A stretch of 10,175 nt of DNA from a bacterium (lineage in GTDB: Bacteria > SAR324 > NAC60-12), in the NCBI GenBank assembly GCA_965233585.1, contig CBDDTI010000650.1, forward strand, positions 1 through 10,175, in the 5' to 3' direction. The notes beneath the pieces were generated by a model, which saw nothing but the letters and a program-made list of their open reading frames with translations, did not search any database and was not told the origin of the DNA. Each line of letters begins with the position of its first letter. Positions within the stretch are counted from its first letter, which is position 1. This document shows, piece after piece, positions 1 through 10,175 of the stretch. Both the position numbers and the translations under genes were made by a program.

Positions 1-181
1 CAGAAATGCAGGTTAATGAGATTTATGCTGTTTATGATAAGCATGACAAGGTGTCTTCTCTCCTAAAGAGTCACCTAAAACGCACTTAATTCTGTCAAAT
101 ATGAAGCGATATGAAAATCCAGGATGACACTTCGTGATGCCTATTCAGAAAGAGCATGAATCTCATTAGCCTGCATTTCTG
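1..181. repeat. Degenerate inverted repeat (arms 1-55 and 126-181), probably the centre of a foldback/MITE cut by the window edge
   Basis: CAGAAATGCAGGTTAATGAGATTTATGCTG...GTGTC matches the reverse complement of 126-181, CAGAAATGCAGGCTAATGAGATTCATGCTC...GTGTC, with a spacer of about 70 bp. Confidence 0.75.
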
Positions 182-669
182 AACACAAGTGCAGAGTGAT
201 AGCCTCAGGATCCGAATCATATTGTAAGCGACCGAAAGGGAGGGAGGACTCTGGGTTTGTAACACTTTTTGGGCGTGATGTACGACGTGTTTCCTGGAGG
301 CAAGGTTGCGTGACGAGCCCAGAGGATCGGACTTCTACGTACACGTCTGTACGTAGGAGCAAGAGCTTAGCAACTGCAGGAAGTTAAATCTGTGATTTAA
401 AGCAAGATGATAGAAAGAAGTGTTATCTTGTTGCAAAGTGATATTTTGGGGTTACGAAACAATATTGGCGGAAAACCGGGGGGTCTTGGCGCTGTGGAGA
501 TTCTCTCTTCATTGGAAATTTTTTGTTTGCTTCTGGTTAATTAAAGTAGATTTCTGTTGTCTTCAGTATATCACTTTTGAGGATGTGGAAAAGGGTACGT
601 ATTTTCTTGAGGTTACACTTTGTTCAACCGTTGCGTTTGATTTTCCTTTTGCTGCCAAAGCCATCCGGG

Positions 670-836
670 ACAACATCACGTCCCATTTCAGCATAGTAGG
701 GAGGGGAAAGAATTTCAAACTCACGTGACAGCCGCCGACTCGACTCGTTCAACTCAATGCTCATGCGCACTAGTTGTCAACTCACGTACAATTTTTTGGT
801 CGGCGCGAAGAACAACATGAAATCAGTAAAATGGCG
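670..836 (+). promoter_or_regulatory. CpG-rich housekeeping-type proximal promoter / 5' UTR of SLMAP
   Basis: E-box TCACGTGAC (721-729), NRF1-like TGCTCATGCGCA (758-769, one mismatch to TGCGCATGCGCA), and YY1-like AAAATGGCG overlapping the start codon. CpGs are retained here but depleted in the introns downstream. The TSS cannot be determined. Confidence 0.55.
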
Positions 837-1016
837 ATGGCAGTGTTCACTTCTCGGCCGAATTCTCATCCCTTTGAAGAGAGAAGAGTTCCTTTGACGG
901 AACCAGTGAAGATAGGACGTTCGGTAGCAAAAAGTAGGCCCGCTACAAACAATTGTATCTTTGACTGCAAGGTCTTGTCCCGAAACCATGCTATCTTGTG
1001 GTATGAAGATGGGAAG
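831..1016 (+). CDS. SLMAP: SLMAP coding exon 1 (FHA domain N-terminal half), 62 codons, phase-0 donor
   Basis: Translates to [62 protein letters not shown]. This closely matches the vertebrate SLMAP N-terminus as recalled (RPNSHPFQER...IGRSVA...[11 protein letters not shown]), including the FHA GR and SRxH motifs. ATG lies in an AAAATGG context; donor AAG|GTTAGT at 1017. Confidence 0.96.
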
Positions 1017-2193
1017 GTTAGTATGACCCTATGGCTCATTTTAAAGGTGATGTTTACCTCAAAAAAATTATTTGTGATGTCTGTTAAGTCCGTTCATGTA
1101 ATGGTAAGTTAATAGAAATCTTTTAAAATCCATGACATCGAATCTGGCGCCCTTCAGCTGTTATATGAAGGGCCAAAACCTTTTTAGGAAGGTTCGTCTG
1201 ACAGTGTTGTCATTGAAAAGGGATGATACGAAGGCTTGTCGCTAAAGCGAGTCCCGCGTTGATGAAGATGGTAAATCAAACGTCATTTCAAGGGCTCTTG
1301 TTATATGAATTATTATGAAAATTTTTCCGGAAACAAAACTTGTAGAGGTCATTTTTCTTCTTGTTGCAAACGACTTGCTGCAGTATTGATCTTTGATCGA
1401 GCGAAAGGTTTGAAAATTTCTCAGTTGTTACTCCGCCTTTAATTTTGGAAGGATCAACAAACTTAATCATGTGCACACAATGTCAGATTAACCGGCTCTA
1501 CATGGGCAGATTAGGTGTTTTGGAATTTGCCCTAAGTTTAGGTGATAACAAGATTCAACTGCTTGCATAATATGACATGCACGAATTGGCTCGCTCGCTT
1601 CTGTGCTCGTGTTTGTTCGTCCTCAGGAATTTCAGTTTCACTGAGATTAGTCCAACCAATTGGTAATACCTTGGAAAAAGGTTTGCCATATTTGGTTGAA
1701 ATCCTTGCTTCCTTTTCCTTCTACAGTGTTAATATGAAAGGTGTCAACAAACCTGTCTGAACCGCCAAACGGAAATCCTTCTGTTAATTTAAACTAGACA
1801 CATTTTGTTCAAAAGTACATGTGGTCTTACTTTTCATGTATTTGTCCAAGTTGTAACATGTATGTTTTCTCTTGTTAAAAACCTGGTACAATCATATGTT
1901 GCCCAAACTCTTAATTTGAAGTAAGATTGAAAGATTCATAAAATTTATAAGTTTTAGCAATAAATGATTTTGAGTGAAAATCACATCTGTTTCTCATGTT
2001 TCCCTATTTTTAATGACACAATGTATAGATGTGAGTGACCTTTGATAAAATGTTTGTAATTTTGGTTTTTCATAGTATTGCTGATAGGAATGTAATTGAG
2101 CACCTTTTGACATCATTCAAAATTTATCAGAATTTTATATCTTGAGCATACAATCTTGCTGGCAAAGGCAAACAGAACTACTGAAATTGTGTC

Positions 2194-2652
2194 TGGTTGT
2201 TCAAAAAATGGATAATGCTACATGTAACTTTTGGAAAAATTGCTATCCAGTGGAGAGAATAATTTGTTTTAGTATATACTAAAACAGTGGATAGTGTTAA
2301 ACGTGCGCGCTGATTGGCTCATCAAACTCCAAATATCCTGTGCTATTTACCTCCGAGCAAATCGGCCAGAAAAATGGCGTCGCAGTCTGCATCAGTGACA
2401 AGTGAAGAAATCATCCAAATTAATTTTTTGTGGTGTATTTGATCTCACTGTTTTAGTATATACTAAAACAACTATTCACCTCAGTTTCGGTGGCTAGAGT
2501 TGGATATTTACCTCGCCGCTTCGCGGCTCAGTAAATATCCACCACTAGCCACCTCCACTTCGGTGAATAGTTGTTAATTATTAACAGTTATCCCCTAGAT
2601 TTATTAACAATTTATCTAATGGATAGCATTATCTTTTCTCTGAACGACTGGT
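2194..2652. mobile_element. Old degenerate palindromic MITE interrupted by element E1
   Basis: The left end CTGGTTGTTCAAAAAATGGATAATGCTA is an imperfect inverted copy of the right end TAGCATTATCTTTTCTCTGAACGACTGG. Internal TATCC/GGATA motifs recur on both sides of the insertion. Confidence 0.6.
2269..2577 (+). mobile_element. Element E1: ~309 bp non-autonomous hairpin/ICR element, TTAG...TTGTTAA
   Basis: The 5' end 2267-2289 is inverted at 2446-2468. This is immediately followed by a ~109 bp terminal hairpin (2467-2575) with apex CTCG-CCGC-TTC-GCGG-CTCA. CTGATTGGCT lies at 2310-2319. No TSD. Confidence 0.85.
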
Positions 2653-2829
2653 TCTGAAGTCTTGTTTCTGGTGTGCAAAATGGTAACACATCTATATATT
2701 AAAAAAATAAAAAACCATCAACCCCTAATTAAACAAGGTGCTGGTTCTGAAGTCTTGTTTCCGGTGAGTAAAGTGGTAATACATGTACAGGTACATAGTT
2801 TAAAAAAAATCAGAAAACCCCTAATTAAC
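2648..2829 (+). repeat. Diverged tandem duplication, unit ~93 bp x2
   Basis: CTGGTTCTGAAGTCTTGTTT occurs at 2648 and 2741, each followed by GGTG..AAA.TGGTAA.ACAT, an A-run, and ACCCCTAATTAA. Confidence 0.8.
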
Positions 2830-3427
2830 CCCTTGCTAAGTAGATGTCTGATGTTTGTCCCTAAATTCCATTTTGACAGCAAAGATTGACATGTGTCCAT
2901 GCTTCTGTTTGAATGTGATTTGCATGTTACAATTAAAAATGATATTAGAGACACTTGCATTACTACACTTACATTGATCCCTGTGTAGAGCAAAATCGCA
3001 GGTACATAATATTATTTTTCAGGCCAAATCTCAGAGCCATAACTTCATGCAAACACCACAAATCCTCCCAAGTTCTCAGTAATTTTTCAACCTGCCTATC
3101 ATGTGAAGGAAAACACTAATCCAATTAATAGTTGAGACTTTGAACAAGTCTCAATTTAAAAAAAAAGAAGTCATCAGCTTGGTCTGAGAACATATAATTT
3201 ACAATGAATCTGATTTCCTAATTCTGTACTTGCATGCATGTGCAGTGTAGCTTTTGTTCTTGCAAAGACACTTGACTGAACTTGACTATAATTTCAAGTT
3301 TGTCATTGAATTGGTTTAAGGAACCTGGAGCTGTATCTTGTTGTGCTGTTTTTCTTATCAAGTGATCTTTTGTGATTTGACAATGTGATGCACTGTAGAG
3401 ATAATAAATTATATGTTTCTTTTCTAG

Positions 3428-3575
3428 TTTTTCTTACAAGACACTAAAAGTAGCAATGGAACTTTTGTTAATAATGTGCGACTCAGTAAAGGTTCAGAAG
3501 AGAGTGAACCTAAGGAGATTAAATCTGGTGATATTGTGCAGTTTGGAGTAGATGTTGTGGAAAACTCGAAAAAAG
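3428..3575 (+). CDS. SLMAP: SLMAP coding exon 2 (FHA domain C-terminal half), 148 nt, phase 0 to 1
   Basis: Acceptor TTTCTTTTCTAG| precedes [49 protein letters not shown], which carries the FHA D-x-x-S-x-NGT and GD-x-x-x-FG motifs. Donor AAG|GTTTGC. Confidence 0.96.
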
Positions 3576-3743
3576 GTTTGCTAGCTAATAGACTAGACTA
3601 TTGTGTGTTTACCCTTTTAACTTCAAGCTAATGTGCATGTATGTTGTCGATGTAAAAAAAATGATAAATGGATTGGTAACTTGGATAAATTGTAAACAAC
3701 AGAGAAGTATTCTCAAGTCAAAATACTCAGAAAATGAATTTTC

Positions 3744-3794
3744 TGACTCCCACAGGATTTGAACCTATGACCTTCCAGAATAAACCACTGAGCT
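3744..3794 (-). pseudogene. Internally deleted tRNA-like sequence in the left arm
   Basis: The minus strand reads GAGCTCAGTGGTT-TATTCTGGAAGGTCATAGGTTCAAATCCTGTGGGAGTCA: an A box and a near-consensus B box, with ~17 nt missing relative to the right arm. Confidence 0.6.
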
Positions 3795-3848
3795 CATACA
3801 TAACATGTTAAGCTTTGCATGACCTTTGTATGACCTTGCTCGCGATGA

Positions 3849-3923
3849 GTCTCCCATAGCTCAGTTGTTAGAGGATCTAACTGGTATTCTGGATGGTCAT
3901 GGGTTAGACTCTCATCAGGGGCT
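3849..3923 (+). pseudogene. Degenerate tRNA-like (SINE-head-like) sequence in the right arm
   Basis: A box TAGCTCAGTTGTTAGAG and B box GGTTAGACTC (consensus GGTTCGANTC) at tRNA spacing. Stems pair poorly, so this is not a functional tRNA. Confidence 0.65.
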
Positions 3924-4361
3924 CAAAAATATTTTTTTCTTAATATTTTGACTTGAGAATGCTTCTCCATTATTTACATTGTCATTGTGGACTGCATTTA
4001 AATACAAAAGTTTAAATCTTTTTGAACCTGTGAGCATAAGGGTAAAGGGCAAAAAAACCATCAGGTATTGTGAACCAAGTACTTTCAGGGAAGGAATCTC
4101 TCACAGGTGGACATGACGACACTCATATATGTAGATCACTTTACTCTCAGATAGGGCAAAAAGAACTTGAATTCTAGCTTGCCCTTGGAATGAGTAGCTT
4201 TCAAATTTTGATTGCCCTGGTCAAGTCTTAGTTTGCTCTTCTAAATATTTGAGAATGACAAGTTACTTGTGCTCAACAACTGTACAGCACTTGTGCTTCT
4301 GTTTGCACATGTAGGTATTGTGCCTATCTAAGTGCTATTTTTTACATTTTCTGGTATACAG

Positions 4362-4425
4362 TTACCCATGGCTGTATAGTAGCCACAGTAACCCTGTTCC
4401 TTCCTGATGGAAAAGAGGCAACAAA
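4362..4425 (+). CDS. SLMAP: SLMAP coding exon 3, 64 nt, phase 1 to 2
   Basis: Acceptor TATACAG|. Translates (V)THGCIVATVTLFLPDGKEAT, matching recalled SLMAP VTHGCIVSTIKLFLPDG. Consensus donor |GTAAGT at 4426. Confidence 0.95.
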
Positions 4426-4687
4426 GTAAGTATAATAACAAAGTAAAATAATGTTGGAAACCAAGCATGTTTGTGACCCATTGTTACTTACATGTAACAA
4501 TCAGGGTTTCTACCACAAGGTTGTGGTGAAGTTTTGATTCACCTGTAGCCTTGATCTTCACACCTGAGACAAACTTGTTACCGTTTGAGTGAATTGTATC
4601 AACTATATGCAAGTTCACCTACATGTATAACATCATAGCATGTGTTACAGGTTATGGCCCTTACTGGCATCCCTGGCTCCTTACAAC

Positions 4688-5232
4688 ATAATTGAAGGGG
4701 TGAGTGCAAAAGGGTGCTAAGTGACAATTTTGTGTGTGTTTTTTTTTCCCTCAAAAGTGCCTGAATTTTTGCATGTGGTTTTCAATTGTATAGAAAAACA
4801 TCACCATGTATTTTTTTTCACTGGGTTGCTCTTCGTTTTCGAGAAATAACGTATGCGAAAAACCTCCCGTTTTCTGCCGGCATCTTTTGTCGCACGAGAA
4901 ACAAAAGGAGTCTTTTGTTTCACTGAACAATGAAACCAGTGAAGCATCACTTTAACTGCCAGTTGATGGAGCCAAAACCAGTATTACAATCAAATAAATT
5001 AGCCTAGGTTGCTAACAGTTGCTTTGTTGGCGCAAGCGATCTACGCGCTGCTCTGCAGGCCACTCATTGTTTTTCTAGGGGGTTGGTTCGACACCACCTC
5101 AGGCTGAATGTTTTTCTTTTCACGTTCTCTCTCCTCTTTTTTTTTTTTTAAAACCAAAGCACCCTTTCCAAGAACCCGTGCTGGCGATACTGCAATTAGA
5201 AAACGTTTTCACGTTCGTATTTAAGGCCACCT
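4688..5232 (+). repeat. Left TIR (~545 bp)
   Basis: Base-by-base reverse-complement match to 7308-7868. Confidence 0.95.
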
Positions 5233-5315
5233 TCGATTGGTATAAAGTAGTTATGGAACCGAAACAAGCGTGTAATAAATATTTAAAATCGTCTCTCATT
5301 GTTAACGCTGCTCAG

Positions 5316-5505
5316 TTGGCGCAAGCGATTAACGTGCTTCGCTGTAAGCAAGGACTATTTCGCTAAAGGATAGTTCGACGCCACGTCAATTGACGTTTTT
5401 TTTTTCGTTATCTTTCCTCTTCTTTTAAAAACAAAGGACCCTTTCCCAGAACCCGTGCTGTCGATGCTGCTAAAATTAACTGTTTTCAAGTTCGTATTTA
5501 AGGCC
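5316..5505 (+). repeat. Second, diverged copy of the internal module at 5027-5228
   Basis: Shares TTGGCGCAAGCGAT, GTTCGAC, CCCTTTCC.AGAACCCGTGCTG.CGAT.CTGC and GTTCGTATTTAAGGCC at an offset of 289 bp. Confidence 0.85.
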
Positions 5506-6154
5506 CGGTCCAAATGCCGCTCCACTCATGTGCCGAACCAAACTCGATAAAGTTCGACTTTGGAGCGACTTTGGAGCAACGGCTGCTTCAGACGGCGTAC
5601 TTGCGTCGAACTTCATCGGGGAACCTCGTGGTAAACAATTTGCGACGAAAATATGTGTTCTGAATTCAAGAACTCTGTGCAAATCGAAAAGCTGTGGCTA
5701 ATATCTCGCTGTTACAAGGAAGCAATTTCAATCGCAAGGTTCAGTGTTTGTATTTACAGTCTTTCTCCTATTAAAGGGAAATCTCACAAGCTAAGCTGGT
5801 ATCACAAAGAAACAGTAAAAAAAAAAAAAGAATTTGCGCTGAAGAACCTCGCTCAAACAGTCTTGTTTCACGTAAATCGAAGGCATGAACGGAACTCCAA
5901 AACGTGACTGAGTTTTTGTTGTCTTTACTTTTAGCGACGACTTCGAGCTTCATGCATGACTGGTCACGCCACTCAATTTTGAGCCAATCACGAGTGCCGT
6001 TATATGAAAAATACAGAACAGTAATTTATGCATTAGGGTATACAGATTATACCTTTATCAGTAAAGTTACAAGAGTGCACAAATACAAGTTTATGCCCCA
6101 CCATTTTTGTTTGTTTCTTCAATTTATTCCCGGTCGAAGGGGCAGAAATTTCCC

Positions 6155-6290
6155 TTATGATATGGCTTGCTCCGTGAGTGGGAAAGATGAAACAAATCCT
6201 TCGCTGTGATTTGGCTAGCCGAGCGGGCAAGATGGAGCTATCTTGCCCGCTCGGGACTACCGGACGCGTCCTGAATTTCCCCATATATAT
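6155..6290 (+). mobile_element. Truncated repeat fragment with a perfect 15-bp hairpin; possibly the 5' part of a fourth hairpin/ICR-class element
   Basis: Hairpin CCGAGCGGGCAAGAT-GGAGCT-ATCTTGCCCGCTCGG at 6219-6254. It starts TTATGATATGG, has GTGATTTGGCT at 6206-6216, and CCATAT at 6281 is complementary to the start. No terminal hairpin follows. Confidence 0.5.
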
Positions 6291-6980
6291 TGAACTGATC
6301 ACAAAATTCGCCCTGGTAACCGAGCCAGCCTGGTCACCGGGCCCACCGGGCTCATATCAAAAAAGACCCTGAATCACTTAATTCGGCAATGCGCACCGTT
6401 ACATGAAATACACTCCCATATGTATTAGCGACTACATCCTGTATGTACTTCACACTGTTCTATAAGCAGTTCAAATTTCAGCATGGATGAGCCAAAAGAA
6501 GGTGATTCTCATCCTCCGTCTCCTCTTCCACGTTTAAAACGGCAGAACGCTCTTTGGGGAACTAAGCTTCTTGAAGCTCTAAACCCAAAGGGATCTGCCG
6601 CAGGTTGACTTCGTTCAGACAATCGGGGGGCCTTGGCCTCCCACAAAAGGGAACTGAAAGAAGATGATTATGGCATTTCTTGCCAATGAGCAGCCCCGCA
6701 GAGTCGCCGGGCTGGGAGGCGGCAGAGTAATAAAGCCGCAGAATGAATCTTAAAGCGATGTTAAGGTAGTGCAAGGTAACTTTTAGGACGTAATGTAAAA
6801 CAGAGAATGCTTTGTTTTTCGATAAACTTTTCGAGGTCTTTTTTTAACGTGAGGTTTCAGCATTTTAGCGTCTAGCGTTTTCAAAAAGCGAATTCAATGA
6901 AATAAAATCAGCGACCGCTAGTTGCTCGAGCTGATAGTATTGTATTTATAAAATTAATGTTATTTGGTCATTTTGTCTCC

Positions 6981-7210
6981 TTGGCACAAACGAATAATGG
7001 GCTGCGCGTCGTCAAAATAAACATTTTATCGTGAGACCGGTTCGACACGACGTTAGCCCTTTTTTCCTGTTAATTTCTCCTCTTCTTTTTGAAACCAAAA
7101 CATTAAAACAGCCCGTACTATCGATGCTGCTACAATAAACCAGTTCCCATCAAAATCTACCTTCGATTAATAAAGTTCCAAAGATTTATAGAACGATTTT
7201 AAAATGTCGT
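6981..7210 (+). repeat. Third, more diverged copy of the internal module
   Basis: TTGGCACAAACGA, GGTTCGACAC, CTCCTCTTCTTTTTGAAACCAAA, CCCGTACTATCGATGCTGCTA and ACCTTCGATT occur in the same order as in 5027-5240. Confidence 0.75.
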
Positions 7211-7307
7211 CACGCGTCGATAAACTTCAAGATCTTTTTTTAAAGTGAAGTTTGAGCATTTAAGAGGGCAGCGTTTTTAAAAGCAAAATCTACAACTTGA
7301 AAAAGGC

Positions 7308-7868
7308 AGGTGGCCTTAAATACGAACTTAAATACGAACTTGAAAACGTTTTCTAATTGCAGTATCGCCAGCACGGGTTCTTGGAAAGGGTGCTTTGGTT
7401 TTAAAAAAAAAAAAGAGGAGAGAGAACACGAAAAGAAAAACATTCGGCCTGAGGTGGTGTCGAACCAACCCCCTAGAAAAACAATGAGTGGCCTGCAGAG
7501 CAGCGCGTAGATCGCTTGCGCCAACAAAGCAACTGTTAGCAACCTAGGCTAATTTATTTGATTGTAATACTGGTTTCGGCTCCATCAACTGGCGGTTAAA
7601 GTGATGCTTCACTGGTTTCATTGTTCAGCGAAACAAAAGACTTCTTTTGTTTCTCGTGCGACAAAAGATGCCGGCAGAAAACGGGAGGTTTTTCGCAACG
7701 TTATTTCTCGAAAACGAAGAGCAAACCAGCGAAAAAAAATACATGGTGATGTTTTTCTATTCAATTGAAAACCACATGCAAAAATTCAGGCACTTTTGAG
7801 GGAAAAAAAAACACACACACACACAAAATCGTCACTTAGCACCCTTTTGCACTCACCCCTTCAATTAT
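7308..7868 (-). repeat. Right TIR (~561 bp), with a 12-bp tandem duplication CTTAAATACGAA and a longer (CA)n
   Basis: Base-by-base reverse-complement match to 4688-5232. Confidence 0.95.
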
Positions 7869-8004
7869 TGCTCTTTAATCTCTGACCTTCAGATTTACTG
7901 TATGTTATCTGAGAAATAGAAAACATGTACCATGTTTCTATTGAGTTATAGAAACACGAGTGGAAGTTTGGGAGAACTAAAAATGCTGTGGGAACATGAG
8001 CTGC

Positions 8005-8504
8005 GAGGGTTGTCCAATACACCCAACTAGAGTCGATTCGTCTTTGGTAGTTGCGATTCGACAAACGGGAAATCGATTCATGAACCCTATTCCATGGAAT
8101 CGACACGAATCGTTTCCCCTTCTGTCGATTCGACATGCCGGAAGTTGATTTGCGCAAGACTTGGAAAATATTGTTGATCTGGACTTTGAGGGTCCAGATT
8201 CAAGTTGATTCAATCGAATCTACTGGAATCGTACAAATCGACTGAAGTTTGTGGCCATGTTTTAGGAATGAAGAAGGTTCATGTATCGTTATTTCATGGA
8301 TGTTGACTTCTGGTGGGCTTTGCAGGGTGGGTTGAAAATGTTGTCGATTTGAGTTTATTCGATCGAATTGAAATGATTTGTTTCTCCTGTTGTTGATTCG
8401 TCATGCCGGAAGTCGATTTGCGAGAGGTGACTCCGTGCGAATCGAGTACAATCGTAAAGTGCCTCAGATGAATCAACTCAGTTTGGGTGTATTGGACATG
8501 AATG
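8005..8504. mobile_element. 500-bp MITE-like element with a probable 8-bp TSD, inserted at the apex of the E3 hairpin
   Basis: Flanked by TGAGCTGC (7997-8004) and TGAGCCGC (8505-8512). Subterminal inverted repeats are TGTCCAATACACCCAA (8011-8026) and TTGGGTGTATTGGACA (8483-8498). It is dense in TCGATTCG/CGAATCGA motifs and has an internal ~67-bp direct repeat (8088-8154 / 8356-8422). Confidence 0.8.
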
Positions 8505-8575
8505 TGAGCCGCAGGCAAATATTTCCACAGCTTTCTCAAATTCTTCCAAACTTTCACAAGTGTTTCTATAACTCT

Positions 8576-8890
<315 letters not shown>

Positions 8891-8967
8891 ATAGAAACAC
8901 GGAGAACATGTTTTCTATTTCTTTTAGAAAACACTGGAAGACAAAAAAGGAAAACTTGTTAACCTTG

Positions 8968-9040
8968 ATTATTATTATTATTGTTATTAACTTGGATCAT
9001 CATCATCATTATTATTATTATTATTATTAATATTATTAAT
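8968..9040 (+). repeat. Compound (ATT)n/(CAT)n microsatellite inside E3
   Basis: Read directly from the sequence. Confidence 0.9.
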
Positions 9041-9299
9041 CTAAACTTGAATTCTCTTTGCTCACATCATCATTATGTCAACAGTTTGTGTTAGTTCTGT
9101 GTCTCCATTGTGTTATACCCAATTTTTAGCCAGTCAGCATGTGTATTTTCTTAGGACTGTTTTCTAAAACTTATTTAGTACATGTACAGAACTTGATGTT
9201 CTGCATGTGTACTGGTTACAATATGCATTTAGCACTCTTAAACTTTAATTTATTTTGGAGCTCGGTACAGTGACTATGGCATTATCATTTCATTTGCAG

Positions 9300-9330
9300 A
9301 GGTGGTGTTCCAAGAAGCTTGTTTGCATTG
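9300..9330 (+). CDS. SLMAP: Probable SLMAP coding exon 4, 31 nt, phase 2 to 0 (linker)
   Basis: Acceptor TTTCATTTGCAG| and donor TTG|GTATGC flank (K)GGVPRSLFAL. There is no sequence homology support, but its phases are exactly those needed to join exon 3 (phase 2) to exon 5 (phase 0). Confidence 0.75.
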
Positions 9331-9729
9331 GTATGCTAAAAATGTCAAAAATGTAACAGTTGAATTGCTTTAAATATGACACTCAGTATTAAAGAGGTTC
9401 TTGTACATGAAACTATTAATAGACAAGATTTTTACCAAAGTAGAAATAGCATTTAGATAAACTGTTCCTTCTTTGAACATTTTTTTCCAATTACACCAAA
9501 ATTAAACAAATTACTCTGTGCTAATACAACATTTTGGTTTCAAGAAATTTGATAGAGATTGAATTTTACAGAATGCATCCAGGTATTGTTTCGAGGAGAG
9601 GCTTTTTTGTTATGATCTGCTCTGAGAAAGTTCTATTGCAGCTCTGTGTCCATCTTCACCGAGTTAGTGTATTCTTCATTACATTTTCCAAGATCATAGT
9701 TAACCTAGGTTCTTCTCTTCTAAAAACAG

Positions 9730-9783
9730 AATGAAAATGGCATCCAAGCTCAGGAAATGTGGCAGTTATCTCAATATTTACAG
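9730..9783 (+). CDS. SLMAP: SLMAP coding exon 5, 54 nt, phase 0 to 0
   Basis: Translates NENGIQAQEMWQLSQYLQ, matching recalled SLMAP SQELFQLSQYLQ. Acceptor TTCTTCTCTTCTAAAAACAG|, with an in-frame TAA at 9721 excluding a longer exon. Donor CAG|GTTTGT. Confidence 0.9.
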
Positions 9784-9879
9784 GTTTGTAACTGTCTACA
9801 ATACATGTGTATGCCATGCACATGTGTTGGATCATAAATTGAATTTATCTAACCAATATTAATCATCATGTTTCTGTAG

Positions 9880-9975
9880 GATGCACTCTATAGAGAACAA
9901 ATGCTTGAAAACAAGCTGGCAAACCTTCAAAGACTTTTGTCAGACTCGCAAGCAGCTGTGGAAGATAACACACAG
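9880..9975 (+). CDS. SLMAP: SLMAP coding exon 6 (first coiled coil), 96 nt, phase 0 to 0
   Basis: Translates DALYREQMLENKLANLQRLLSDSQAAVEDNTQ, matching recalled SLMAP EALHREQMLEQKLATLQRLL. Acceptor TTTCTGTAG|, donor CAG|GTAAAC. Confidence 0.95.
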
Positions 9976-10175
9976 GTAAACAAGATAACTGTTGCATTGG
10001 ATTGTGGTGCCAAACAATTATTGGGCAATGTTAAAGTGTATCTGTTCTTGATCAATTAGTGTACAGAACATATTATTTTAAACATGTCCACTAATTAATA
10101 ACAATCAGAATCTTTGAGTGCCTACTCAAAGAACTTTAAAGCTAAGATCAGCTGGTAATCCCCAAAAATGGTCGA

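What the first reader, a model, noticed from the sequence alone, without database searches (positions are those of the whole stretch)
2467..2575. Terminal hairpins carry ssDNA-specific folding signatures: C(GNA)G triloop plus tandem G.A mismatches, always on the same strand
Read on the strand opposite to the TTAG start, the apices are E1 TGAG-CCGC-GAA-GCGG-CGAG (2512-2530), E2 TGAG-GC-GCA-GC-CGAG (8828-8843) and E3 TGAG-CC-GCA-GG-CAAA (8505-8519, decayed). E2 has another CTCG/CTCG opposition lower in the stem. Established: d(GCGNAGC) triloops and tandem sheared G.A pairs in a YGAR context are unusually stable in DNA. Folded single strands are substrates for the integron integrase (attC), XerCD (CTX phage) and HUH transposases. 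Inference: conservation of these strand-asymmetric features across otherwise unrelated sequences points to selection on the fold of one particular DNA strand, meaning an ssDNA intermediate or recognition hairpin rather than a simple TIR.
Basis: partly seen in the sequence, partly recalled or inferred. Interest (0 to 1): 0.75.

Follow-up and report, generated by a model that had tools for sequence, protein, structure and literature searches.

The report
Strand-marked end hairpins of Helitron-like transposons
The hairpins are the end structures of small rolling-circle (Helitron-like) jumping genes in eukaryotic DNA, and their mismatches and loops are built so that only one of the two DNA strands can fold into an unusually stable purine-zipped hairpin, which points to a single-stranded step in how they move.

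Summary
The window is eukaryotic DNA: an FHA domain is split by a 2.4-kb intron. It sits in a bin filed as bacterial.

E1 (2269-2577), E2 (8576-8890) and E3 (about 7909-9167, minus strand) are non-autonomous elements with the anatomy of Helitron2/Helentron-type (HLE2, HINE-like) rolling-circle transposons:
- a 5' TTAG start and a short inverted repeat whose right copy is subterminal;
- a long hairpin directly after that right copy;
- an end at ..TTGTTAA, with no target duplication.

In the 12-Mb assembly the apex YTCR-ministem-TNC-ministem-YTCR occurs in 201 hairpins of 37 families.
- The hairpin lies at the 3' end of that strand in 18 of 28 families, at the other end in 0, and is unclear in 10.
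- With the loop left free, 172 of 254 apices carry TNC and 0 carry GNA on that strand.
- Outside the apex, family consensus stems hold 91 T.C/C.T against 6 G.A/A.G mismatches.

So the opposite strand carries C(GNA)G caps and CGAG/CGAG blocks, both experimentally known stable DNA motifs. Selection on a folded single strand is well supported. Which strand is read, and which enzyme reads it, is inferred. No autonomous partner with these ends was found.

The parts
2269..2577 (+). E1: complete non-autonomous element, 309 bp, 5'-TTAG...TTGTTAA-3', inside the intron of an FHA-domain gene
   Evidence: 17 near-full copies in the assembly. Limits come from paralogous empty sites of sister copies, e.g. 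C123 against C222, C684 against C90, C668 against C358. FHA exons.
2269..2289 (+). E1 5' terminal inverted repeat, itself palindromic (TTTTAGTATATACTAAAA core)
   Evidence: I13: 2264-2289 and 2446-2471, 26 nt, 100% complementary
2310..2317 (+). CTGATTGG box (CCAAT on the other strand) at a fixed distance from the 5' end
   Evidence: a YTGATTGG-like box at +34 to +44 (54 of 56 at +40 or +41) in 56 of 65 elements across the families with mapped 5' ends
2446..2466 (+). E1 3' subterminal inverted repeat, ending ..TATACTAA directly before the hairpin foot
   Evidence: I13. In the whole-element fold it pairs with the 5' repeat and abuts the hairpin.
2467..2575 (+). E1 terminal hairpin (the finding): foot AACAAC../..GTTGTT, three TC/TC mismatch blocks
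   Evidence: I7.: -37.0 kcal/mol as written, -41.5 for the complementary strand.
2512..2530 (+). E1 apex CTCG-CCGC-TTC-GCGG-CTCA; on the other strand TGAG-CCGC-GAA-GCGG-CGAG
   Evidence: family consensus CTCG..CTCG
2576..2577 (+). terminal AA of E1, unpaired, belongs to the element
   Evidence: empty sites lack these two bases; unpaired 3' overhang.
8576..8890 (+). E2: complete element of a second family, same anatomy, inserted in the hairpin arm of E3
   Evidence: 18 near-full copies. Empty sites of the target repeat, e.g. C225, C5, C628.
8786..8888 (+). E2 terminal hairpin
   Evidence: -26.1 kcal/mol as written, -28.3 for the complementary strand. Consensus: family 3.
8829..8843 (+). E2 apex CTCG-GC-TGC-GC-CTCA; the other strand reads TGAG-GC-GCA-GC-CGAG and contains GCGCAGC
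7909..9167 (-). E3: older element of a third family on the minus strand. Its 5' TTAGAAAACAG starts at 9167, it carries an (ATT)n microsatellite, and its hairpin at 7911-8923 is interrupted by E2 and by a 488-bp insertion. The ends are approximate.
   Evidence: I10, I15, I18, D4; alignment of the family and consensus (family 10); read
8505..8519 (+). E3 apex remnant; on E3's own strand TTTG-CC-TGC-GG-CTCA, a CpG-decayed form of CTCG-CC-TGC-GG-CTCG

Best explanation
E1, E2 and E3 are non-autonomous members of a large superfamily of Helitron-like rolling-circle transposons of the HLE2 type (Helitron2/Helentron; HINE-like). At least 37 hairpin families occur in this assembly.

Anatomy. Each element starts with TTAG and a short inverted repeat. 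The right copy of that repeat is followed directly by a 96-202-nt hairpin, and the element ends two bases later (..TTGTTAA). There is no target duplication.

The hairpin. It is kept as a fold: the arms differ completely between families but stay complementary. It also carries conserved strand-identity marks. On the strand that starts with TTAG these are 2x2 T.C/C.T bubbles in a YTCR/YTCR context and a TNC loop closed by C-G. On the complementary strand the same positions give CGAG blocks (C:G, sheared G:A, A:G, G:C) and a C(GNA)G mini-hairpin cap.

Proposed function (inferred). When the DNA is unwound by the element's HUH Rep-helicase, the two complementary hairpins are not equivalent, so the enzyme can tell strand and polarity. 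The purine-zipped strand is the more likely one to be selected for its fold.

End juxtaposition. In single-stranded form the terminal repeat pairs with the subterminal repeat and stacks on the hairpin. This brings the 5' T and the 3' AA together at a 2-nt bulge, the geometry needed for cleavage and circle closure.

Targets. They follow TAW-N5-W^WTAK. This is a small palindromic consensus whose right half resembles the element's own TTAG end.

Shown versus inferred. Shown: the anatomy, copy number, limits, lack of duplication, target consensus, strand asymmetry and its generality. Inferred: the HUH enzyme, the ssDNA intermediate for these families, which strand is read, and the role of the marks.
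For: Anatomy: inverted repeats and hairpins (I7, I13, I16). 71 of 88 hairpins anchored on CTAAAACA have a 5' repeat partner within 1.5 kb.

Limits and absence of duplication: 283 alignments of joined flanks to uninterrupted paralogous sites, and the AA belongs to the element.

Match to the published HLE2/HINE anatomy, namely short inverted repeats, a stem-loop after the right repeat and no duplication: passages of PMC11417382, PMC4067079 and PMC7492417.

Strand asymmetry:
- Orientation is 18 left, 0 right, 10 unclear of 28 families.
- Loops are 172 TNC and 0 GNA of 254, with a C-G closing pair in 223 of 254.
- In 37 family representatives there are 195 T.C/C.T against 19 G.A/A.G, of which 74 T.C/C.T are by ascertainment.
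- In 24 family consensi, outside the apex, the count is 91 against 6.
- There are 30 further TC/TC blocks, 27 in a YTCR/YTCR context, and no GA/GA block.

Fold, not duplex site: the ministem is 1, 2, 3 or 4 bp in 6, 13, 12 and 6 families, with 14 different sequences.

Thermodynamics: the complementary strand is more stable in 170 of 201 hairpins (median 2.4 kcal/mol) and in 33 of 37 families.

Physical chemistry from papers:
- GCGNAGC and GCGNNAGC mini-hairpins melt at 71-76.5 C and resist nucleases, whereas TTC-loop hairpins behave as ordinary ones (PMC13037366, passages).
- A C:G closing pair is worth about 3 kcal/mol for d(GCA) (PMC3201870, abstract).
- The CGAG block was solved by NMR, with the pyrimidine-GA-purine rule (PMC10085684, passages).

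End juxtaposition: the whole-element folds of both strands pair the repeats next to the hairpin.

Target consensus over 65 unique insertions: T-9 56, A-8 58, W-1 60, W+1 59, T+2 63, A+3 55.

Helentron presence in the host: a DUF6570 relic lies in the same assembly. A 2411-aa OTU-DUF6570-Helitron_like_N-PIF1-endonuclease frame, 99% identical to the relic over 112 residues, lies in a metagenome contig.
Against: No autonomous element with these ends was found:
- Helitron_like_N has no match in the assembly.
- None of the 80 Helentron-bearing metagenome loci (353 kb) holds a long hairpin or the apex motif.
- BLAST of the element families against those loci gave only three small fragments away from the reading frames.

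The classical HLE2 target (T^T in T-rich DNA) is not met. The known HINE 3' palindromes are 5-10 bp, not 96-202 nt.

Both strands fold very strongly (about -20 to -95 kcal/mol for family consensi), so the 2.4 kcal/mol difference is small. The nearest-neighbour parameters do not model sheared G.A or GNA caps properly.

A G.T against A.C wobble test, which could have named the folded strand, is neutral (17 against 19).

Families share descent, so family counts are not independent events.

Copies are 85-94% identical and CpG-decayed, so there is no sign of present activity.

By analogy with canonical Helitrons the transferred strand should carry the hairpin at its 3' end. That is the pyrimidine-bubble strand, not the purine-zipped one.
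Confidence: 0.62

Rival explanations
1. Same elements, but the strand that matters is the one that starts with TTAG (hairpin at the 3' end), as in canonical Helitrons. On this reading the conserved T.C/C.T bubbles and the TNC loop are open, flexible recognition points for the transposase, and the purine motifs on the other strand are a by-product.
For: By analogy with canonical Helitrons, the displaced strand carries the hairpin near its 3' end (PMC11417382 and PMC5148889 passages). The hairpin is at the 3' end of the pyrimidine strand in 18 of 18 scorable families. IS608-type HUH enzymes read irregularities in hairpins (recalled, not checked here).
Against: A bubble could be made from any mismatch, yet 91 of the 163 mismatched positions outside the apex (gaps set aside) are T.C/C.T and only 6 are G.A/A.G. 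The context is YTCR/YTCR in 27 of 30 blocks. The loop is TNC with a C-G closing pair. Together these are exactly the complements of the three rules known for stable purine motifs. That coincidence is not expected if only openness mattered.
Confidence: 0.2
2. The conserved CTCG words are direct-repeat binding sites for a protein on ordinary double-stranded DNA. On this reading the hairpin potential is only a long inverted repeat, and no single-stranded fold is involved.
For: CTCG recurs 2-8 times per hairpin as a short conserved word. A fixed CTGATTGG box elsewhere in the element shows that duplex protein sites may exist.
Against: The start-to-start spacing of the two apex words varies from 9 to 15 nt with ministem length, but the words always face each other in the fold. 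The lower blocks also always face each other, at positions that differ between families. The arms covary completely between families, which a duplex site does not need.
Confidence: 0.06
3. The elements are not Helitron-like at all. They belong to an undescribed class of eukaryotic ssDNA transposons, for example one moved by a small HUH or other enzyme in the manner of IS200/IS605, and share only the general logic with HLE2.
For: No partner with these ends was found. The target TAW-N5-W^WTAK is not the T-rich site of HLE2. The hairpin is ten times longer than in described HINEs.
Against: Every scorable structural feature of HLE2/HINE is present: an asymmetric inverted repeat, a palindromic subterminal repeat, a stem-loop after the right repeat, no duplication, a central microsatellite in E3, and head-to-tail neighbours. 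Helentron proteins exist in the same or a closely related host. The assembly holds only short contigs of the host, so an 8-12-kb partner would rarely be assembled.
Confidence: 0.1
4. The fold is selected in RNA, for example as a small-RNA precursor hairpin transcribed from the element, not in DNA.
For: Tandem sheared G.A pairs also stabilise RNA helices (recalled). A CCAAT-like box sits at a fixed position.
Against: The hairpin is tied to the exact element end and to the terminal repeats in every family, which is a transposition feature. C(GNA)G triloops and GCGNAGC mini-hairpins are DNA-specific stability motifs according to the review. No RNA data could be obtained.
Confidence: 0.02

Closest known systems
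HINE / DINE-1 elements (non-autonomous Helentrons; HLE2 group of Helitron-like elements)
   Same: Short subterminal inverted repeats, sometimes palindromic in themselves; a palindrome or stem-loop between the right repeat and the 3' end; no target duplication; an optional central microsatellite; many copies; non-coding (PMC4067079, PMC7492417 and PMC11417382 passages).
   Different: The hairpin is 96-202 nt long against 5-10-bp palindromes. It starts directly after the repeat and ends 2 nt before the terminus.
FoHeli1/FoHeli2 (Helitron2-type elements of Fusarium oxysporum)
   Same: Asymmetric terminal inverted repeats and terminal hairpins whose printed loop is GAA closed by C-G (TCAGCC GAA GGCTG). 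Joined ends suggest a circular intermediate (PMC5148889, section 6 and abstract).
   Different: Those hairpins are short (5-6 bp), lie inside the inverted repeat and therefore occur in both polarities on one strand. No tandem mismatch blocks are described. Those elements are autonomous, 5-6 kb.
   Same: Works like it in logic: strand-specific recognition of imperfect subterminal hairpins in ssDNA, no duplication, and a target that resembles the element's own cleavage site.
   Different: Those are prokaryotic, have hairpins at both ends and no terminal inverted repeats, and are not rolling-circle elements with a helicase. Membership is not claimed.
   Same: Structure rather than sequence is conserved, and unpaired or extrahelical bases on one folded strand decide which strand is recombined.
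   Different: A tyrosine recombinase, a different site anatomy, bacterial.
Mini-hairpin DNA d(GCGNAGC)/d(GCGNNAGC) and the CGAG block
   Same: The complementary strand of F3-type apices reads GCGAAGC and that of E2 reads GCGCAGC. The 24 TATC loops give GATA of the GNNA class. CGAG opposed to CGAG is the block solved by NMR. Mini-hairpins mark origins of ssDNA phages (PMC13037366, PMC10085684).
   Different: Those are isolated motifs in oligonucleotides, phage origins or a human promoter. Here they are embedded as repeated modules in 100-200-nt transposon hairpins. Their actual pairing in these sequences has not been measured.

Membership tests
HLE2 (Helitron2/Helentron) non-autonomous elements, HINE | Short terminal inverted repeats (about 11-18 nt), the right one subterminal | tested here: met
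   E1 26 nt at 100%, E2 24 nt at 96% (I13, I16). 71 of 88 anchored hairpins have a 5' partner.
HLE2 (Helitron2/Helentron) non-autonomous elements, HINE | Stem-loop between the right repeat and the 3' terminus | tested here: met
   Present in all families, but 96-202 nt long (family consensi) against 5-10-bp palindromes in the literature.
HLE2 (Helitron2/Helentron) non-autonomous elements, HINE | No target-site duplication | tested here: met
   Joined flanks align to uninterrupted paralogous sites without a duplicated base.
HLE2 (Helitron2/Helentron) non-autonomous elements, HINE | Insertion between T and T in T-rich DNA, variable T runs at the ends | tested here: not met
   Position -1 is A in 41, T in 19 of 65. 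Position +1 is A in 35, T in 24 of 65. The consensus is TAW-N5-W^WTAK. The ends are fixed TTAG/TTGTTAA.
HLE2 (Helitron2/Helentron) non-autonomous elements, HINE | Autonomous partner encoding Rep-helicase (with or without endonuclease) with the same termini | tested here: inconclusive
   A Helentron-type frame with OTU, DUF6570, Helitron_like_N and PIF1 above the Pfam cut-offs, and Exo_endo_phos just below its cut-off at 23.7 against 24.5 bits, lies in a related contig, and a relic lies in the assembly. No shared termini were found in 80 loci, 353 kb. Helitron_like_N is absent from the assembly.
HLE2 (Helitron2/Helentron) non-autonomous elements, HINE | Central microsatellite or tandem repeats in some members | tested here: met
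   E3 carries (ATT)n at 8968-9039 (D4).
IS200/IS605-like ssDNA transposons | Subterminal hairpins at both ends and no terminal inverted repeats | tested here: not met
   There is one terminal hairpin plus a 21-26-nt inverted repeat.
IS200/IS605-like ssDNA transposons | Insertion next to a specific short word without duplication | tested here: met
   WTAK lies directly 3' of the insertion point in most of the 65 insertions, with no duplication.
Mini-hairpin / CGAG-block DNA motifs (structural class, on the complementary strand) | GNA or GNNA loop closed by 5'-C...G-3' | tested here: met
   172 TNC and 24 TATC of 254 apices on the YTCR strand; closing pair C-G in 223 of 254.
Mini-hairpin / CGAG-block DNA motifs (structural class, on the complementary strand) | 5'-YGAR-3' opposed to 5'-YGAR-3' | tested here: met
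   All apex blocks meet this by ascertainment. 27 of 30 non-apex blocks meet it in 24 family consensi.
Mini-hairpin / CGAG-block DNA motifs (structural class, on the complementary strand) | Sheared G:A pairing and extra stability in solution | not testable with these tools
   Needs melting curves, nuclease probing or NMR. The nearest-neighbour folds favour that strand by a median of only 2.4 kcal/mol.

The most novel reading that the evidence does not exclude
In this lineage of Helitron-like elements the single strand that is folded and read is the one conventionally called the bottom strand, with the hairpin at its 5' end. On this reading the purine-zipped hairpin (CGAG blocks plus a mini-hairpin cap) is a strand-identity signal, and perhaps a second-strand-origin signal comparable to the origins of ssDNA phages and the single-strand origins of rolling-circle plasmids. 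Targets are chosen because they mimic the element's own paired TTAG/CTAA end. The enzyme may be one not yet linked to the Helentrons seen in the host.
Probability: 0.25. Interest if true: 0.8.

Novelty: new variant of a known kind. Interest (0 to 1): 0.6.

Why it matters
How Helitron2/Helentron elements are cut, which strand travels, and how the enzyme tells the two strands of a palindromic end apart are all unknown. Biochemistry exists only for one canonical Helitron.

These families give a sequence-level answer that can be tested directly. One strand of the end hairpin is built from motifs whose exceptional stability in DNA is already measured, and the other is built from their unstable complements. 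This holds in 37 families whose stems are otherwise unrelated. It predicts strand-specific binding and cleavage that a few oligonucleotides could confirm.

The families are also a natural, repeated use of the CGAG block and the mini-hairpin in a mobile element. The rule (hairpin, YTCR blocks, TNC loop) could serve to find and orient such elements in genomes where current Helitron finders look only for short palindromes.

Separately, the window shows that a bin filed as a bacterial genome holds megabases of eukaryotic host DNA.

Tried and rejected
1. Hairpin-shaped targets. The flanks of E1, E2 and many copies look like a stem with a 6-nt loop, with insertion at the loop/3'-arm junction. 18 of 65 flank pairs give 3 or more bp at loop 6, but random re-pairing of left and right flanks gives 19.1 on average. 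The look is therefore explained by the palindromic consensus TAW..WTA, without covariation. I keep the consensus and drop the claim of a folded target.

2. Orientation by searching for the partner of the flanking 12-mer. The result was 87 upstream only, 16 on the other side only, 15 both and 88 none. Inspection of the 31 other-side hits showed neighbouring elements, low-complexity DNA or one-mismatch chance hits, and no reversed architecture. I replaced this test with the extent of copy-to-copy similarity.

3. Ungapped flank identity as an orientation test failed, because the foot positions differ by a few bases between copies.

4. Apex-agnostic palindrome scan. 394 long palindromes were found and 45 carry the motif. 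The rest are other repeat types, and bulged hairpins are missed by the ungapped scan.

5. Autonomous partner. Helitron_like_N has no match. The one PIF1 match is on a 1-Mb bacterial-looking contig. There is a DUF6570 relic. One metagenome scan gave 80 loci with Helentron frames but no matching ends.

6. Wobble test for the folded strand: neutral, 17 against 19.

7. Earlier notes of this scan hold nothing on these elements.

8. Read-level evidence for circles, empty alleles or transcripts could not be obtained (one search gave no result), so activity and the window's own empty sites remain untested.
Full report
WHAT THE WINDOW IS

The window is contig C650 of a 12.0-Mb, 747-contig assembly that is filed as a prokaryote genome. 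Earlier notes of this scan call it a SAR324-like bacterium. The window itself is eukaryotic. A Pfam FHA domain is split between 831-1016 (profile positions 1-30) and 3428-3574 (positions 33-67) by a 2.4-kb GT..AG intron, and the window is full of interspersed repeats. E1 lies inside that intron.

CHECK OF THE OBSERVATION

Its apex CTCG-CCGC-TTC-GCGG-CTCA is at 2512-2530. The pattern CTCG N2-4 TNC N2-4 CTCR has these 2 matches against 0.07 expected, and 0 of 200 shuffles reach 2.

The E3 string at 8505-8519 is present. On E3's own (minus) strand it reads TTTG-CC-TGC-GG-CTCA, a CpG-decayed copy of the family apex CTCG-CC-TGC-GG-CTCG.

Folded as DNA, E1 gives -37.0 kcal/mol as written and -41.5 for the complementary strand. 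E2 gives -26.1 and -28.3. Shuffles give about -8 to -10.

WHAT THE ELEMENTS ARE

E1 has 17 and E2 has 18 near-full copies in the assembly, at about 85-94% identity. Alignments with flanks, and 283 alignments of joined flanks to uninterrupted paralogous sites, set the limits at 5'-TTAG...TTGTTAA-3'. They show that the AA after TTGTT belongs to the element and that no base is duplicated.

Each element has a 21-26-nt terminal inverted repeat whose right copy ends ..CTAA directly before the hairpin foot (I13, I16). 71 of 88 hairpins anchored on the word CTAAAACA have such a 5' partner.

This is the published anatomy of HLE2 elements and their non-autonomous HINE/DINE-1 forms: short inverted repeats, a stem-loop after the right repeat, no duplication and an optional microsatellite. 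I saw it in passages of PMC11417382, PMC4067079 and PMC7492417.

E3 (about 7909-9167, minus strand) is a third family with an (ATT)n tract. Its hairpin is interrupted by E2 and by a 488-bp insertion.

Folding the whole E1 as a single strand, in either polarity, pairs the two repeats directly next to the hairpin and leaves the terminal AA (or TT) unpaired. The two ends of the element are therefore brought together at a 2-nt bulge.

HOW GENERAL THE APEX IS

Searching the assembly for YTCR-ministem-TNC-ministem-YTCR with at least 8 of 12 paired positions outside gave 206 loci. This is 201 hairpins after removing double counts and stubs, and they cluster into 37 families, 28 of them with two or more members. 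Their stems are unrelated in sequence but keep 41-166 paired positions.

The ministem is 1, 2, 3 or 4 bp in 6, 13, 12 and 6 families, with 14 different sequences. Its loop-closing pair is 5'-C..G-3' in 37 of 37 families.

With the loop left free (3-5 nt of any sequence, at least 9 of 12 outer pairs), 254 apices were found:
- TTC 87, TGC 57, TAC 26, TCC 2;
- TATC 24;
- 58 others;
- no GNA loop on the YTCR strand;
- closing pair C-G in 223 of 254.

Mismatch polarity and loop polarity are therefore completely coupled.

STRAND BIAS RELATIVE TO THE ELEMENT

I oriented families by where copy-to-copy similarity continues beyond the hairpin. With the motif read as YTCR, the element interior lies to the left (hairpin at the 3' end) in 18 of 28 families, to the right in 0, and is unclear in 10. 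An earlier test, based on finding the repeat partner of the flanking 12-mer, was noisier: 87 left only, 16 right only, 15 both, 88 none. The right-side hits were neighbours or chance matches.

MISMATCHES IN THE STEMS

In one representative per family (37), the strand starting with TTAG has 195 T.C/C.T positions against 19 G.A/A.G. Of the 195, 74 are due to the search motif itself.

In majority consensi of the 24 families with three or more members, outside the apex block, the counts are:
- 91 T.C/C.T against 6 G.A/A.G;
- 14 T.T, 12 A.A, 3 C.C, 1 G.G;
- 17 G.T/T.G and 19 A.C/C.A;
- 53 gaps.

There are 30 further isolated 2x2 TC/TC blocks, 27 of them in a YTCR/YTCR context (17 CTCG/CTCG, 9 CTCA/TTCG, 1 TTCG/CTCA), and no GA/GA block. 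Counting the apex block, a consensus hairpin carries 1-4 such blocks, median 2.

MEANING ON THE COMPLEMENTARY STRAND

Each block becomes 5'-YGAR-3' opposed to 5'-YGAR-3', most often CGAG/CGAG. The cap becomes C(GNA)G or C(GATA)G.

According to passages of PMC10085684, CGAG opposed to CGAG forms the 'CGAG block' (C:G, sheared G:A, A:G, G:C). It was solved by NMR and is in line with the pyrimidine-GA-purine rule.

According to passages of the review PMC13037366:
- GCGNAGC and GCGNNAGC mini-hairpins melt at 71-76.5 C and resist nucleases, while TTC-loop hairpins behave like ordinary DNA;
- such mini-hairpins occur at origins of ssDNA phages.

The abstract of PMC3201870 puts the C:G closing pair about 3 kcal/mol above G:C for d(GCA).

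The F3-type apex reads GCGAAGC on that strand and E2 reads GCGCAGC. With ViennaRNA DNA parameters, which do not model these motifs well, the complementary strand is the more stable one in 170 of 201 hairpins (4 equal, 27 the reverse; median 2.4 kcal/mol) and in 33 of 37 families.

INTERPRETATION

The arms covary, the mismatched words always face each other whatever the ministem length, and the mismatch type is one-sided. Together these argue for selection on a fold rather than on a duplex site.

A perfect palindrome would fold even better, so the mismatches must do something. The simplest reading is that they make the two complementary hairpins non-equivalent, so that a strand-specific enzyme can tell strand and polarity.

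The mismatches, their context, the loop and the closing pair are exactly the complements of four known rules for stable purine motifs. This makes the purine strand the more likely one to be selected for its fold.

Against this:
- By analogy with canonical Helitrons, the displaced strand should be the one with the hairpin at its 3' end, which is the pyrimidine strand.
- A wobble test is neutral (17 against 19).
- Both strands fold strongly in any case.

I therefore commit to 'strand-identity marks on a folded single strand of an HLE2-type element' at about 0.6. Within it, I hold the purine strand as the one read at roughly 2:1.

TARGETS

Over 65 unique insertions the flanks give T at -9 (56), A at -8 (58), W at -7 (61), W at -1 (60), then W at +1 (59), T at +2 (63), A at +3 (55) and K at +4 (51). 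This is TAW-N5-W^WTAK, not the T^T of described HLE2.

The right half resembles the element's own TTAG and the left half its complement CTAA. In 6 of 65 cases the insertion lies 6 nt beyond the inverted 5' end of another copy, and a few copies abut head to tail.

The flanks often look like a small hairpin. However, re-pairing left and right flanks at random gives the same number of stems (18 observed, 19.1 expected), so a folded target is not supported. Mimicry of the donor end by the target is an inference.

AUTONOMOUS PARTNER

Helitron_like_N has no match in the assembly. A DUF6570 relic with a stop lies on contig C1; the HELIANO paper names DUF6570 as a marker of HLE2.

A metagenome scan with that relic returned 80 loci. 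L033 carries a 2411-aa frame with OTU, DUF6570, Helitron_like_N, PIF1 and Exo_endo_phos (the last just under its cut-off, 23.7 against 24.5 bits). It is 99% identical to the relic over 112 residues. Helentrons therefore exist in the same or a closely related host.

None of the 80 loci (353 kb) contains the apex motif or a long hairpin. The element families match them only in three small fragments away from the frames. Similarity between Helentron copies stops at the stop codon. The link between these Helentrons and the E families is therefore not shown.

NOVELTY

HLE2/HINE elements are known. I found no description of three things:
- a 100-200-nt terminal hairpin built from repeated one-sided YTCR/YGAR blocks with a one-sided GNA cap;
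- the complete coupling of these marks to the element's polarity;
- the TAW-N5-W^WTAK target.

The searches were 'Helitron'+'triloop' (0 papers), 'Helitron'+'sheared' (360 papers; the 8 listed concern sheared DNA; listing only) and 'transposon'+'mini-hairpin' (6 papers, 5 listed, none relevant by title or abstract). The closest item is the GAA-loop terminal hairpin printed for FoHeli1/2 (PMC5148889, section 6). Repbase and Dfam, subscription papers and the supplements of the HINE papers were not seen and may hold similar families.

VERDICT

This is a new variant of a known kind, with a directly testable prediction about strand choice.

Noticed in passing
window 1-10175; assembly G000: A bin filed as a prokaryote genome (92% complete, 2% contamination by marker genes) holds much eukaryotic host DNA. 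The window has an FHA domain split by a 2.4-kb intron (831-1016 and 3428-3574), and hundreds of eukaryote-type transposon copies lie on many contigs.
   Followed up: partly
window 2310-2317 (E1) and the same offset in other families: A YTGATTGG-like box (CCAATCAR on the other strand, like a CCAAT/NF-Y site), often preceded by GCGCGC, sits 40-41 nt from the 5' end in 54 of the 56 of 65 elements that carry one, across several families whose neighbouring sequence differs. It may be a promoter or a second protein site of the elements.
   Followed up: partly
window 8011-8498: A 488-bp insertion with about 40-nt terminal inverted repeats (TGTCCAATACACCCAAC...) sits in the apex of the E3 hairpin. The apex word appears on both sides (7993-8007 and 8505-8519), which looks like a long target duplication of roughly 10 bp. 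It is MITE-like; its class was not determined.
   Followed up: no
window 4688-5225 and 7327-7868: Two roughly 540-nt arms, 93-99% complementary, enclose about 2.1 kb. Further diverged copies of part of the arm lie inside, at 5309-5505 and 7039-7168. This is a large foldback or long-inverted-repeat element.
   Followed up: no
window 1-181 and 3691-3978: Two more small inverted-repeat elements: arms 1-37/145-181 at 89%, and arms 3691-3751/3918-3978 at 79%.
   Followed up: no
G000 contigs, 65 insertion sites (e.g. C215, C719, C597, C234): Elements of this superfamily often land next to each other. 6 of 65 lie exactly 6 nt beyond the inverted 5' end of another copy, and some abut head to tail (..TTGTTAA directly followed by TTAGTA..). 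The 13-letter junction word occurs 4 times in the assembly.
   Followed up: partly
L033:4789-12021 (metagenome contig) and G000 C1:7422-7799: An apparently intact 2411-aa Helentron frame (OTU, DUF6570, Rep, PIF1 helicase, endonuclease) lies in a contig from a related host, and a decayed relic of it lies in this assembly. Its own termini could not be defined, because similarity among copies stops at the stop codon.
   Followed up: partly
window E1, E2, E3 apices and lower blocks: The CTCG words contain CpG and decay to CTCA or CTTG in older copies. All blocks of E3 are hit, and one each in the window's E1 and E2. This suggests CpG methylation of these repeats in the host.
   Followed up: no
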